DNA of 64,000 nt, taken from positions 52,824,001 through 52,888,000 of the forward strand of contig NC_073390.1 of assembly GCF_028641065.1 (NCBI RefSeq). Direction: 5' to 3'. Under the pieces are notes generated by a model. The model did not search any database. It saw nothing but the letters and a program-made list of their open reading frames with translations, and was not told the DNA's origin. Shown here piece after piece: positions 46,030 to 58,874 of this stretch. Position 1 is the first letter of the stretch, and every line of letters starts with the position of its first letter. This DNA comes from Leucoraja erinacea (Eukaryota). A program made the position numbers and the translations under genes.

Positions 46030-46870
46030 TATTTATAATTCATCCTTGATTCTGCTTATATTTATTTGTTTGATGGAGGTACCTGAGATGATCTTGGGTA
46101 TTGAACACAATTACAGATTCAGAAACAGTATTTTGTGTACATTTTTGGGACTTTTGTTAAATGCAAAATTTTGCTTTGGATTTTGCTATCTCCACAAATT
46201 CTTATATAATCACAATCTTTATGATATCAGTTGATTACATATTTCAGCAGAAGAGCCGGTATCATTTCCTATTAAAACATAGATTGCCTACTTTAACCTG
46301 TCCTTGAAATACGATCACTCCTTCATTAGTGAGATCGTGCATTTCAGTTTTTAACTCCAATTACTGTCCAAGACACAATCAGGAGACTGGCCATTTTCAC
46401 AAAAAAAGTTAAAATGACTTCACATTTTATATACACCCTTGACATTTTTTCATTACCAATACTTAGTAAATGCAATAAAGTGTTGTATTTTCTAAAAACG
46501 AATCACACTGCATCATTTAATTAGTGTGTACAATTCAATGGAACCACTGAAAGGATTTTCATATTAATTGCACTTCGTGAAATCAACGTGTTAAAGGGAT
46601 TGACATTTCTATCATTGTATTATCCTAGCATTTTTTTTACATAGGTGGTTTAATTTTTTTGTCAGCACATTAGGAATAATTTAAGTTCAATCCCTGTCGG
46701 CAGGATGGGTGTAGGAGAGCAATTAAAACTGAAAAGCTCCGTTTTTGCTCCATTTTCACCTATCTATATTTTTAATGCTTGTTTTGGAACTGGGCCTCTC
46801 ATTAATAAATGTAAATTGGGGTTGTATCAAATACCTGAATCTTAGATGCAACTTTACAGTCCGGTGAGAT

Positions 46871-47500
46871 ATGTTCCTCGGGGTACACATCTCGGAGGAT
46901 CTGTCCTGGTCCCTCAACACCTCCACGCTGATCAAAAAGGCGCAGCAGCGCCTTTACTTCCTGAGGAGGCTCAAGAAAGCCCACCTGTCCCCCCGGATCC
47001 TGACCAACTTTTACCGCTGTACCATCGAAAGCATCCTGACCACCTGCTTCACGGTATGGTACAGCAGTTGCACCGTAGCGGACAGGAAGGCACTACAACG
47101 GGTGGTGAAAACCGCTCAGCACATCATCGGTGCCCCGCTCCCTGCCATGGATGCCCTCCACCGAAAACGGTGTCTGAGACAGGCCGGGAAGATCATTAAA
47201 GACCCATCACACCCCAACCATGGACTGTTTGCCCTCCTCCCATCAGGGAGGCGGTACAGGAGCCTCAGGTCACGTACTAGTAGGATGAGGAACAGCTTCT
47301 ACAACAACACTATCACATTGCTGAACTCGGAGTCCCGCCGATAGATTTCTCCAGTCTCTCCGTCCACATTGTTTGCTTATTCTGTATTTTTTATTTCTAT
47401 ATTGCACTGTTACTACAGACTGACGCTAAACTGCATTTCGTTGTACCCATACTTGTATCTGTGCAATGACAATAAAGTTGAATTGAATTGAATTGAATTG
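46871..47500 (+). mobile_element. Rex1/Babar LINE 3' end
   Basis: ORF 46871..47344 [49 protein letters not shown]; tail aataaa(gttgaa/ttgaa)n. Confidence 0.92.
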
Positions 47501-50430: not shown

Positions 50431-50591
50431 TACTGAGGTGGGAAATGCGGCCAACCGGACTTATCTTACAAAGATGGGCTTTGTGAGCTCGATGGCCTCT
50501 TTCTGTGTTACAGAAGTTCAACAATTCCCTAATTAAAGACACTGTGTGAGGTTTGTTGTATAGTTGAGTTTAGTTAAATTGTCATGTTGTC

Positions 50592-51710
50592 GTGGTCACT
50601 CTCGGCCTCCCCACTGTCACATGTGCCTGGATTAAGGATTTCCTCACAAACCGGCCCCAGACTGTGAGACTTGGCCCCCACCTCTCCTCCACTCGCAGGT
50701 TGAGTACCGGTTCCCCACAGGGCTGTGTGCTAAGCCCCCTCTTATACTGTCTCTACACCTACGACTGTGGTCCGGCCCACAACAACAACCGCATCGTCAA
50801 ATTTGCTGACGACACTACTGTGGTCGGACTTATTTCAAAGGGAGACGAGGCAGCCTACAGAGAGGAAGTCCTGAAGTTGACAACCTGGTGCTCAGAAAAC
50901 AATCTGGCTCTGAACACCAGGAAAACAAAAGAGCTCATTGTCGACTTCAGGAGGCACAGCACCGACTTAGCCCCCCTACACATCAACGGCGAGTGTGTGG
51001 AGAGGGTCAACACCTTCCGGTTTCTCGGCGTCCATATCGCGGCTGACATCTCCTGGACGGACAACACGACAGCGGTCATCAAGAAGGCTCAGCAGCGGCT
51101 GCACTTCCTGAGGGTCCTCAGGAAGCACAACCTAGACTCTAACCTGCTGCTGACCTTCTACCGCTCGTCCATCGAGAGCCTGCTGACATACTGCATTACA
51201 GCATGGTATGGCAGCTGCACCATGGCAGACAGGGAGAGGCTTCAGAGGGTAACCAGGACAGCGCAGAGGATCATTGGTTGCCCTCTCCCCTCCCTGATGG
51301 ACATCTACACCTCCCGCTGCCTTAGCAGGGCAAAGAAGATCACCAAAGACAGCTCCCATCCTGCGTTTGGACTGTTCGACCTGCTGCCCTCTGGAAGGCG
51401 CTATAGGTGCATCAAATCCAGGACAAACAGACTCAGGAATAGCTGCTTCCCGAGAATTATATCTACCATGAATTCAAATCCACACATTCACTGACTACAC
51501 CGCCCAACACGGACTTCCATCTGTATATATGTATATATGTATGTAGCGCCGTAGAATTTGTGCACCTATTCCCCCCCCATCTCCCTTCTGTTTTGTTTTC
51601 TGTTTCTTTTTTTTTGTGTAAAATTGTATGTATGCACTGAGTACGAGCAGCTTTCAGTTTCACTGTACATGTATAGTGACAATAAATGGCATATCTATAT
51701 CTATCTATCA
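50592..51710 (+). mobile_element. Rex1/Babar LINE, 5'-truncated, with an open 300-aa RT C-terminal frame
   Basis: [40 protein letters not shown]; tail gacaataaa..(tatc)n; sits inside a minus-strand Rex-type tail (about 50560-51900). Confidence 0.93.
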
Positions 51711-54810: not shown

Positions 54811-55826
54811 ATTTTAACTTGGCTAAATTTTACTTTGTTGAATTGACTACAAATCAAAGGTCAACAGACATTTTATCAAGAATGTTATAATGATTCAGCT
54901 CGTTAAATGCACATTCTCTTATTAATCCTTCTTGAACAGTGTTTTGTTTAAATTCTTCCAGCGTCAGACTTTAGAAATAAGTAAATTAAAACAAAAGGAA
55001 CCCTGCTAATTTATTTAATGTGGGCAAACCATAATATATGCACACCTATAGAACAGTTGGTTCTAAATCCGAGACACTAACTCGTAACATTAATTTTTTT
55101 ATTTTTTTATTTAAAGTATTAATATTTGGTTTTAAGATCTGATAAAATATACTAATACTGCAGTAAAATTGCAATAAAATAACTACTTTGCCAATGTTTG
55201 TTATGCTAACACATGCTTAATTAGTTAGTCAAAGATTGGTGTTTAGTATGTTTTGAATGGCAATTTATCATCTTGTGATGAGCTAATTTCAAATATGATT
55301 GCCATTATAATGCTGTATATCTAACCCTTATCAGTAAACTCCAATCGTTTTTGTAATGTTTTTAAGATTATTACTGTTGTTAAGCCTTCTCAGCTGTAAT
55401 TTCCATGTTCCCGTTGTACACATGATATTATGGTTTAACACTAACCAGTACTTCTGCACCTGTGTTTGGGTGTAACATATCTTTCTGACCTTTTGTTAAC
55501 TGCTCCTCCGTTCCACCACTGCCAGAAACTCAACATTAAAATCTGAAAATAAGTCAATCCTCTGGAGATTTACGATTCAAAAGTAGTTACTTTCCTCTGC
55601 CACCTGTTTCGTCAAATAACGAGTTAATATTTTGTAAAGTTGCTATTTTCCCCGTAAGCTTGCTTTCTTTCAATACCTTCGTACAGAAGCGAGATAGTTG
55701 CCGTGATCAGCAACACCAAATGCCACTCTTCAAAATGGGAAAGGAGAAAAGTGAGCATTCTTCAGCATCCATTAGTGGTATACCTATGACGTGAAAGCTA
55801 ATCATGTTGCTTATAGTTCATTGTTC

Positions 55827-56780
55827 GTTGCTCAGTGCATTTTCTGACTCACATGATGGTGTAAAAAGTTTAAAAATTGAGCTCTCTTTCCTCCCTGGAT
55901 AAATTTATGGATTACTTTGCGAAAAATACATTTGGACTTCAATGCCAGTCAAAGGCTGGAAAAACATGTGATATTTTCTTAAGGGTAAAAATAATTGATT
56001 CGGGTTTCCTAATTTTTATTTTAGCTGCCCAATTTCCTTTTCTTTATACTCACAATAAATAGAAATGAGTATCATATTAAAATGCTAATTCTAAATCAGA
56101 AAGTAGAATGCACAAGTCTTAAGAGAACTCTTTACGCATTGTGCACTGATCGCATTGCTCAGCCTTCCCCATTAGGTGTGAAGACATTTTTTCCTGGGCT
56201 TAATGAAACTCGAACGCTGTTGACGGTTTTAGATTTCTTTGCACCACTCAGTCCAGCTGCCTTGCATTGGTTTACTGTTTTCTGCAGAGACCCAATTATC
56301 ATCACCTAATTAATGCTGTACAAGGAAAAGCATTTCCCAACTGAATTGAAGACTCTGAGCAATGTGGTGCACAATGAGTGAAAAGTTCTCTTAAGACTTA
56401 TGGATTCTGCTTTCTGACCTTTTAATATGATACCAATTTCTAGTTATTGCAAATATAAAACAAAGGTAATTGGGGAGCTAAAAAAAAGGGGAAATCAGAA
56501 GAAATTCGTTTTACCCTTAAGAAGATAACAATTGCTTTTCCAGCCTTCTTTGACTGGCGTGAAAGTTCAAATGTATTTTTCAAAAAGTTATGAGTGCATT
56601 TATTCGGGAAGGAAAGAAAGCTACATTTGTAACTTTCTCCACCATCAAGTGAGTAAGGAAATGGTCACTTGAGCAACAAAGAGAAGCTTGATGGTGTAAA
56701 AACTTTCCTTCCTCAATAAATGCACATAACCTTTTTGACAATGCCTTTTGACATTGGGCATAAATTCTAAAAAGGCTGCT
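55827..56780. repeat. Diverged long inverted repeat with a third partial arm
   Basis: 55827-56205 is the reverse complement of 56309-56677 (e.g. aagtcttaagagaact / agttctcttaagactt); 56687-56780 is a further partial copy. Confidence 0.85.
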
Positions 56781-58874
56781 TAGACACAACTTTAGGCATT
56801 GCATTGACTTGGTATTCCCACTGTGGCACTTCTGTTAGGCAGCATTTCTGTCTAACTATTTTAGGAAGCAGTATTAAAAAAATACTCGCCACTTAGAATA
56901 AAATAATGCCTCGATAATAATACAAAAACATTTCTCATTATTTGTAAGATAAAATAATGCAAAATTGATTCCCTGCAATCCCAGGATCAGGACACAATCT
57001 ACGGTGTTACAGGGAATGATTCCTGTTCACTTTTCTTGCCTTGACATCGGTCTTTTACTGTAGCCGACCTTGAAGGATTAGATTACTTGCACTGAGTCTA
57101 CAGTTTTTCTTTAGCAAATAAAATGGGGTTTTTTCTCAAGCTCTCTCAGCCAGTAAAATTATTTGGTATCATTGTTTAATAGACTAGATTAAGCAGAGCA
57201 ACTATGATTTCAACATAAAGCTAAATGTGAAAAAAAGAACAGATAAAATGTTAAAAAACAAGAAGATACATAACAGGATGAGAGGCATTAATTACGATGA
57301 TTGTCGCTGCATCAACAAAAGTCCAATGGAGATTGATTCTAATCATAATAATCTGCGGAAATGCATGTTATCAATGTAGGGAACCTCTCCCCGTTCAAGA
57401 CTGTTTCTTACTCATGTGTGGTTGCTAGAAGGCATCTTATTAACAGGAATCAGAATAGGACATCTCTGGGGGTGCTTGCTTGGATTGTGAGCAGAACACT
57501 TCCTGTGGTCCAGTTCTCCTCCTGGGAAGGGATTAAGATTTGGTACCTAGATTCAACTGGTGTCCTGTTTACCTTTGCCACACACAGATTATCTTCCTGA
57601 AAAAATACATGCTAAAGCATGCATCTGTATTTAGTTAGAAAACAAGGTGCTAAACTCTGTGGCAAAGATTCCAGGAATTCTGGCCGGGATATCACAATTT
57701 AACTTAACATCTAAACTCAAAAGATCAACAATTTTCAATTTACTTAAGACCATTCTGGCAACAAGTTGCAATAGATTTGTTGAGTTGTAAATAATAAATT
57801 AAAAATGGTCTTATTTGTGTTTTTTTTTAAATGCTAACGCTAATGTACAGGAGAGATCTGTTGATTATCTGGTACACCTTCTTTCATTTCCTTCTCCCTT
57901 TGCAAAACCGATGTGACTAACAGATGCGATAAATATGCTTCTGGATGAATTAAGAGTCAAGAGTCAAGAGTATTTATTATCCTATGTACCGAAAGCAGAA
58001 CAGTGAAATTCAGGAGGGGGCTGCAATATTAGAATTGTTTCATTTGAAAATAAATTAAAGACCCCGATTTTTGTTTTTCACAGTGCCGTTTTGCATACTG
58101 GGGATTATCACTGACACCAGGGGTCAGAATTGTTAGTATGAACAAAGATACTGGAGCAAAGCCATAGCTGGGTCAGGTCGCTGTTGGATAATCCCATAGG
58201 GTTTCTCTTTAGGCTGCTGCCACCAAGAAGTTCTGAAGATGGGAAAGGAAAGGGGTTGAACGAAAAGTCCCAGCAAACAAGAAAGCAAATGTGTTGTCAA
58301 TTAGCAGAAATATAAACAAAGTTTATTAAAAAGCCCAGTAATAACTCCTTTCGAAATTTAACACAAAAGGCAGATTATGTGGCAACGGACACAAGGCAGA
58401 ATTTTGCACTAAACATCACTGGAGGTTTGACGCTGCCAGTACTGAACCTGCGGCAAGAGAAAACAAACAACCAAAGTGCTACATGGATACACACTTTGTA
58501 GAACTTAGAATGTCAAATATTGGATAATCTAATGAACTATTACAAACAGTGCTTCAGACACTGGCCACATTTAGTGCTTACAGCGAGATTTCATTTTAAT
58601 AGAATTCCAGTAAGGACTCAAATGAAAATAAATGGTGAGATTAAGTAGATCAACAGCAGTTGTAACAAGAGACAGGTGAATGTTGATTAGAGAAAATACT
58701 GTAGATTTTTGTCCACTTCATTGTGTGGATTTGGCAGGAAACATTATAACAGTGTTGAAAGAAAAATAATTATCTTCAGTCATTCTAGTCATTGAATTTA
58801 CCTTCATATTTACCTTTACAAATGGAATAGCTGAGGATTTATAATGGATAAATAACCTCTTTAATTGTGTTTTT

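What the first reader, a model, noticed from the sequence alone, without database searches (positions are those of the whole stretch)
55827..56677. Old 850-bp imperfect palindrome in unique DNA
Two arms of about 370-380 bp (55827-56205 and 56309-56677) with a spacer of about 100 bp are collinear reverse complements along their length. Examples: gttgctca/tgagcaac, aaaaatacattt/aaatgtattttt, ttcttaagggtaaaa/ttttacccttaagaa, atcatattaaaa/ttttaatatgat, aagtcttaagagaact/agttctcttaagactt, cattgctcag/ctgagcaatg. Many mismatches and indels make it far older than the MITEs here. It could be an ancient palindromic repeat (Eulor/UCON-like) kept by selection, or a long RNA duplex for ADAR editing, small RNAs or splicing control.
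Basis: partly seen in the sequence, partly recalled or inferred. Interest (0 to 1): 0.7.

Follow-up and report, generated by a model that had tools for sequence, protein, structure and literature searches.

The report
Decaying fold-back duplication upstream of foxl2
This 860-base mirror-image stretch about 81,000 bases upstream of the foxl2 gene is real, was found at only one place in the genome and is shared with related species, but those relatives have lost or eroded parts of either arm, so it is likely an old DNA-copying accident that is decaying rather than a conserved RNA hairpin.

Summary
The palindrome is real: arms 55822-56162 and 56355-56682 pair at 264 of 322 sites (82%); score 922 against a shuffle maximum of 127. 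It is single-locus in a 2.19-Gb genome, non-coding, has no Rfam match, and lies between divergently transcribed foxl2 (81 kb) and mrps22 (403 kb). Four related organisms carry the locus, so it is old (arm divergence about 3-4 times the split to organism F). The duplex is not conserved. Organisms F and G lack 222 bp of the left arm, this genome lost 11 bp of the right arm, and D lost 12 bp. D shows 11 pair-restoring against 8 pair-breaking differences and no compensatory change. G-U pairs are 14 on each strand, and the substitution rate equals the flanks (5.4% in both). A third, 60-90 bp inverted copy of the right arm's tip points to repeated local fold-back copying. Best reading: an old template-switch inverted duplication decaying without selection on pairing (0.7). 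Weak, after-the-fact hints (slower right arm and spacer, faster left arm) leave open that one arm plus the spacer is a foxl2 regulatory element.

The parts
55822..56162 (+). Left arm (341 bp); the faster-changing arm in two comparisons, likely the dispensable copy
   Evidence: E differs at 30 of 308 sites here against 7 of 199 in the right arm
55917..56138 (.). 222 bp of the left arm that organisms F and G lack (3-letter microhomology at the joint); present in A, D, E
   Evidence: table 5 (X14, X17), tables 2, 5, 8; 82% alike to the right arm, so older than the A-F split and lost in F/G
56163..56207 (+). Weak inner extension of the left arm (pairs with 56310-56354 at 22 of 45)
56163..56354 (.). 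Spacer (192 bp, 42% G+C), single copy; 1 difference in organism D
56355..56682 (-). Right arm (328 bp); likely template of both other copies; this genome lacks 11 bp behind 56416 that D, F, G keep and that pair with the left arm; D lacks 12 bp at 56588
56687..56778 (+). Third, partial copy of the arm's outer part, folded back from the right arm's tip (clear to about 56745, weak beyond)
   Evidence: nhmmer E 2e-4; score 156 against the right arm (300 shuffles, maximum 101) but 87 against the left arm (maximum 109); 38 of 40 alike to the right arm in organism E (table 8, my reading of record 3)

Best explanation
This is a single-locus inverted duplication, likely made long ago when a replicating or repairing polymerase folded back and copied about 340 bp of neighbouring DNA in reverse, and its arms are now drifting apart, likely without selection on base pairing. 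Shown: the arms, their presence in four relatives, lineage-specific deletions in either arm, balanced pair-breaking, and a second small inverted copy at the right arm's tip. Inferred: the template-switch origin; the right arm as template and the left arm as free copy; a later second fold-back making the third copy; an age of about 3-4 times the split between this genome and organism F (0.21 / 0.054).
For: Single locus: DNA searches found only this place; two 32-34-letter patterns with up to 3 mismatches and one 26-letter pattern with up to 2 hit only this locus; two shared 15-mers had 1 and 4 other hits against 8 and 10 for the reversed controls, none extending; the same DNA search finds 2527 candidates for a neighbouring MITE-like palindrome. 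Duplex not kept: F and G skip 55917-56138, which cuts predicted long-range pairs from 290 to 111; this genome lost 11 bp and D lost 12 and 2 bp of the right arm. Of D's 25 listed differences (of 27 in the piece) 11 restore a pair, 8 break one, 1 is a mismatch in both, 5 lie outside aligned pairs; no change at both partners in D, E or F among the 40 listed rows. Of the 19 pair-changing differences 5 leave G-U on the plus RNA, 5 on the minus RNA, 9 neither; whole duplex 14 and 14. F differs at 38 of 709 sites over the palindrome and 165 of 3070 in the flanks, both 5.4% (flank counts by subtracting). Perfect blocks are no longer than chance (longest 16, permuted mean 21). The third copy shows that fold-back copying has likely happened here twice. 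Template switching is known to create inverted repeats and hairpins without selection (PMC5453318, abstract seen).
Against: The origin cannot be seen directly: junction microhomologies have decayed and no pre-duplication allele was found. 340 bp with a 100-190 bp spacer is larger than the small inverted triplications of PMC13334657 (median inverted fragment 160 bp, spacer 30 bp), and the third copy does not run on as a full direct copy, so a plain triplication does not fit. No neutral baseline is available: the flanks may themselves be constrained, so 'same rate as flanks' is not 'neutral'. E shows 16 pair-restoring against 6 pair-breaking differences among 27 of 41 listed (p 0.05), which could mean slower decay or arm-to-arm conversion in E. 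D shows no left/right asymmetry (13 of 341 against 11 of 328). An extinct transposon family more than about 20% diverged would likely be missed.
Confidence: 0.7

Rival explanations
1. The last recognisable copy of an extinct non-autonomous DNA transposon with 340-bp terminal inverted repeats and a 190-bp core, or a very old mirror-image Penelope insertion.
For: The shape (long arms, short core) is that of fold-back elements, and this genome is full of palindromic elements. Earlier notes report mirror-image Penelope insertions of similar length in this genome (unchecked).
Against: No second copy; a two-armed relative at 12% divergence would be missed about 12% of the time and five of them practically never (assuming the mismatch search is exhaustive). 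No target-site duplication or sharp terminal motif by eye; no hammerhead core in 3192 bases around it; 0 of 27 short frames match Pfam.
Confidence: 0.15
2. The right arm and spacer are part of a long-range foxl2 regulatory element under sequence constraint; the left arm and third copy are by-products that can be lost. This can be true together with the best explanation; as a rival it says the locus matters.
For: Lies in the 485-kb desert 81 kb upstream of foxl2; distant upstream deletions disturb FOXL2 in people and goats (PMC2689649, passages). The two stretches beside the arms are the 4th and 5th longest repeat-free runs in 464 kb. D has 1 difference in the 192-bp spacer against 24 of 669 in the arms (p 0.026); the left arm changes faster than the right in E (p 0.008) and F (12 of 127 against 26 of 582, p 0.03).
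Against: All three tests were chosen after seeing the data; E and F share changes and are not independent; D shows no arm asymmetry; right arm plus spacer in F (4.5%) does not differ from the flanks (5.4%, p 0.42). No chromatin or reporter data, and no distant vertebrate genome could be searched.
Confidence: 0.1
3. A transcribed long hairpin (non-coding RNA) kept for A-to-I editing or small RNA production.
For: Either strand would fold into a very stable hairpin if transcribed: -392 and -384 kcal/mol, z -19 and -24 against 20 shuffles each.
Against: Stability follows from any inverted repeat and is equal on both strands; G-U 14 and 14; arm deletions in A, D and F/G; no compensatory change. In 12.9 million reads (about 5 in 100 of one oligo-dT run, tissue not given) 2 reads were laid, both only partly and running on unlike, so none from the locus (weak, one run). 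Both neighbouring coding genes point away.
Confidence: 0.05

Closest known systems
Local template-switch events (four-point model, Loytynoja and Goldman 2017, PMC5453318; abstract and opening seen)
   Same: Single-locus inverted copy of nearby DNA that creates a hairpin without selection; the short third copy fits best
   Different: The main arms (340 bp) are much longer than the short mutation clusters that paper treats; the event is too old to show switch points
Small inverted triplications, DUP/IN/DUP (PMC13334657; abstract and sections 2.3, 2.4 seen)
   Same: Plus/minus/plus order of three copies, a 37-bp gap between the paired parts at the second turn, sizes of hundreds of bases
   Different: Third copy is partial and closer to the middle copy than to the first; no second copy of the spacer; first spacer 100-190 bp
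Eulor/UCON ancient conserved repeats (PMC5753468; passages seen)
   Same: Old, non-coding, near a developmental gene
   Different: Those are low-frequency repeat families shared across vertebrate groups; this has one locus and no excess conservation
FOXL2 upstream regulatory domain with conserved non-coding sequences and PISRT1 (PMC2689649; passages seen)
   Same: Same side of the orthologous gene, same gene desert towards mrps22
   Different: The human smallest critical region lies 283 kb upstream; homology of this element to any human sequence was not testable

Membership tests
MITE / non-autonomous DNA transposon | Dispersed copies in the genome | tested here: not met
   positive control; blind beyond about 20% divergence
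MITE / non-autonomous DNA transposon | Terminal inverted repeats | tested here: met
   arms of about 340 bp, but any inverted duplication meets this
MITE / non-autonomous DNA transposon | Target-site duplication | tested here: inconclusive
   none seen at the outer ends; age could have erased it
Eulor/UCON ancient repeats | Low-frequency repeat family (several loci) | tested here: not met
   one locus
Eulor/UCON ancient repeats | Conserved above surroundings | tested here: not met
   38 of 709 against 165 of 3070 in F
Eulor/UCON ancient repeats | Match to a Repbase/Dfam consensus; shared with bony vertebrates | not testable with these tools
   no repeat library or other vertebrate assembly is held
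Conserved RNA duplex (ADAR or Dicer substrate) | Both arms kept, compensatory or G-U-biased change | tested here: not met
Conserved RNA duplex (ADAR or Dicer substrate) | Transcribed and edited or diced | tested here: inconclusive
Small inverted triplication (DUP/IN/DUP) | Two flanking direct copies around an inverted fragment | tested here: inconclusive
   plus/minus/plus order present but third copy covers only model positions 32-141 of 359 and does not continue
Small inverted triplication (DUP/IN/DUP) | Short reverse-complementary junctions (about 6 bp) | not testable with these tools
   junctions too old; no pre-event allele
Local template-switch inverted duplication | Single-locus inverted copy of adjacent sequence | tested here: met
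Local template-switch inverted duplication | Outgroup with the unduplicated state | not testable with these tools
   all 4 informative relatives (D, E, F, G) postdate the duplication
Penelope mirror-image insertion | Abundant parent family, hammerhead-bearing pLTR, target duplication | tested here: not met

The most novel reading that the evidence does not exclude
The right arm and spacer are a long-range foxl2 enhancer that has twice been copied by fold-back, and skate-like lineages differ in keeping or deleting the extra arm, giving natural variation in enhancer dose or shape at a gene for ovary and head development.
Probability: 0.1. Interest if true: 0.5.

Novelty: new member of a known kind. 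Interest (0 to 1): 0.2.

Why it matters
As it stands it is an ordinary result: a striking hairpin (z about -20) that comparison with relatives shows is not maintained, and a reminder that arm mismatch alone neither dates a palindrome nor shows selection. It is a tidy natural record of how a 340-bp inverted duplication decays in a slowly changing vertebrate genome. It would matter more only if the spacer and right arm prove to be a foxl2 enhancer, because the F/G deletion would then be a ready-made natural test.

Tried and rejected
Rfam: 0 matches at gathering score in the window; 1 chance-level match, E 0.64, in 55300-57300. Coding: 0 of 27 frames of 25 aa or more over the element match Pfam. 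High-copy MITE: rejected. Metagenome scan with a 24-letter spacer word: 0 matches, uninformative. No RNA holder listed. Runs X3 (organism B) and X6 (organism C) covered only the right part or almost nothing: a hole proves nothing, so they are not used. Two short contig pieces in X13 (records 4 and 6, 33-36 letters, loose on both sides) are treated as chance or paralogous and not used. Polarity counts for F are not used because only 13 of 31 differences were listed and those were the shared ones. Full inverted triplication: third copy does not continue. Other low-copy-looking palindromes within 464 kb are unrelated in sequence. Look-ups of earlier findings near the place, by sequence and by words gave nothing. 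Paper searches: 8 run; none of the listings describes this element, but the library lacks most subscription papers and I opened no supplements, where lists of conserved elements near foxl2 could bear on the enhancer reading.

Full report
Observation. The inverted repeat is there. BLAST of the window against itself gives 55824-56162 against 56355-56680 at 76% with gaps, E 9e-65. A local alignment scores 922 against a maximum of 127 in 200 shuffles. The strong arms, 55822-56162 and 56355-56682, pair at 264 of 322 sites with 7 gaps, 28 transitions and 30 transversions, K2P 0.21. The inner 45 bp on each side pair at 22 of 45 and the innermost 51 at 12 of 51, so the spacer is 192 bp, or about 100 bp if the weak extension counts. 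All 6 of 6 quoted motif pairs are present. A third partial copy of the outer part of the arm follows the right arm at 56687-56778 (E 2e-4); it matches the right arm above chance (156, shuffle maximum 101) but not the left arm (87, maximum 109), and nothing beyond it continues the likeness.

Setting. The window is C14:52,824,001-52,888,000 of a 2.19-Gb genome. I fetched 200 kb on each side. A single-exon forkhead frame on the minus strand matches human FOXL2 best (E 4e-65; next FOXC2 8e-43), with its start 80.9 kb from the left arm. MRP-S22 exons begin 403 kb beyond the right arm on the plus strand, and PI3K Ras-binding-domain hits lie beyond foxl2. The element is therefore in the desert between two genes that point away from it. 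Pfam scans of 76 window frames and 150 flank frames (of 625 low-repeat flank frames of 55 aa or more) found only foxl2, reverse-transcriptase pieces, an ALKBH8_N match beside them and two weak hits under cut-off; small-exon genes and non-coding RNAs are not excluded. That the organism is a skate-like cartilaginous fish is recalled from its repeats and echoed by earlier unchecked notes; I did not test it.

Copy number. DNA searches with either arm or the spacer return only this locus. Two patterns of 32-34 letters with up to 3 mismatches hit only the two arms; a 26-letter pattern with up to 2 hit only the right arm. Two shared 15-mers had 1 and 4 further hits, fewer than the reversed controls (8 and 10), and none extended. 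The same DNA search found 2527 candidates, the best 96-98% alike, for another palindrome 73 kb away. That control also shows that diverged arms do not date an element: its arms are 69% alike with gaps, yet the family is young. By calculation a two-armed relative at 12% divergence would be missed 12% of the time and at 20% divergence 64% of the time, so only a very old family can hide.

Relatives. Of 24 listed runs, 20 hold the stretch, from organisms A to G. I laid 7 of the 24; B and C gave too little cover to use. F and G both skip 55917-56138, 222 bp of the left arm, on long contigs with a 3-letter overlap. D and E keep that part, and it is 82% alike to the right arm, far more diverged than A and F are (5.4%), so it is an old part lost in F and G. 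D, F and G carry 11 letters behind 56416 that pair with the left arm and that this genome has lost; E shows a variant of them; D has lost 12 letters at 56588 and 2 at 56557. Symmetry has thus been broken independently in at least three lineages. The F/G loss alone cuts predicted long-range pairs from 290 to 111.

Selection on pairing. D is the clean test, with both arms and 25 of its 27 differences listed: 11 restore a pair that A lacks, 8 break a pair that A has, 1 is a mismatch in both, 5 lie outside aligned pairs; no pair has changed on both sides in D, E or F among the 40 listed rows, with 23 rows not shown. The 19 pair-changing differences split 5, 5 and 9 between G-U on plus, G-U on minus and neither; the whole duplex has 14 G-U on each strand and folds equally well either way (-392 and -384 kcal/mol). 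E leans the other way, 16 restoring against 6 breaking among 27 of 41 listed (p 0.05), which may reflect faster decay on the line to A or conversion in E. F differs at 38 of 709 sites across the palindrome and 165 of 3070 in the flanks. Perfect blocks are no longer than permutations give. In one oligo-dT run (12.9 million reads, about 5 in 100 of the run) no read came from the locus; this is weak. No Rfam family matches.

Asymmetry. The left arm changes faster than the right in E (30 of 308 against 7 of 199, p 0.008) and F (12 of 127 against 26 of 582, p 0.03) but not in D (13 of 341 against 11 of 328); the spacer has 1 difference in 192 in D against 24 of 669 in the arms (p 0.026). These tests were chosen after seeing the data and E and F are not independent. 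They fit a parent sequence (right arm, spacer) and a free copy (left arm), the one deleted in F and G. In E the third copy is 38 of 40 alike to the right arm (table 8, my reading of record 3), against 35 of 41 in this genome, so it is likely younger than the main duplication and also decaying.

Mechanism. Shown: single locus, three copies in plus/minus/plus order, presence in four relatives, independent arm losses, no covariation. Inferred: a polymerase folded back and copied about 340 bp in reverse, some 3-4 times earlier than the A-F split; a later short fold-back at the right arm's tip made the third copy; since then the arms have drifted. Template switching is reported to create such hairpins without selection (PMC5453318, abstract and opening). 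Small inverted triplications have a like order of copies, median inverted fragment 160 bp and spacer 30 bp (PMC13334657, abstract and two sections), but the third copy here is too short and too close to the middle copy for a single such event. Eulor and UCON are low-frequency repeat families shared across vertebrate groups (PMC5753468, passages), which this is not by the tests available.

What stays open. The region upstream of human FOXL2 holds long-range regulatory sequence (PMC2689649, passages), the element sits among the longest repeat-poor stretches of the 464 kb examined, and no neutral baseline was available, so the flanks and the right arm may be under some constraint. An enhancer role for spacer and right arm is possible but untested (0.1). 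An extinct transposon relic cannot be excluded (0.15).

Verdict. Real, old, single-locus inverted duplication that is decaying; not a conserved RNA duplex and not a repeat family by these tests. New member of a known kind; interest 0.2.

Noticed in passing
L013:5580-6570 (C14 about 52,953,580-52,954,570): About 1-kb G+C-rich palindromic element with TA at both ends; arms only 69% alike with gaps, yet 2527 candidates genome-wide and best copies 96-98% alike: a young family that moves with diverged arms.
   Followed up: partly
G000:C14:52,539,734-52,539,949 and 52,593,048-52,593,263: Two PI3K_rbd hits 53 kb apart on the same strand with the same model span and frame length: possible tandem or assembly duplication of a pik3cb-like exon.
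   Followed up: no
L029:4001-5146 (minus), C14:52,798,001-52,799,146: Single-exon foxl2 orthologue in the longest repeat-free run (4549 bp) of the 464 kb examined.
   Followed up: partly
window 57952-58011: 60-bp piece of a high-copy repeat (summed depth 450-670 in four relatives) that the self-comparison of 464 kb did not flag.
   Followed up: no
window about 55800-55815: Organism D's contig has other letters just outside the left arm's tip, likely a lineage-specific insertion (table 7).
   Followed up: no
window 50574-51491 and 46868-47341: Reverse-transcriptase fragment with a strong Pfam ALKBH8_N match in the same frame, and a second ALKBH8_N match; likely 3' pieces of a LINE.
   Followed up: no
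L018:4570-5329; L046:2204-2561; L039:9305-9886: Other palindromes that are rare within the 464 kb; unrelated in sequence to the finding; L039 shares its core with L023:4700-4960.
   Followed up: partly
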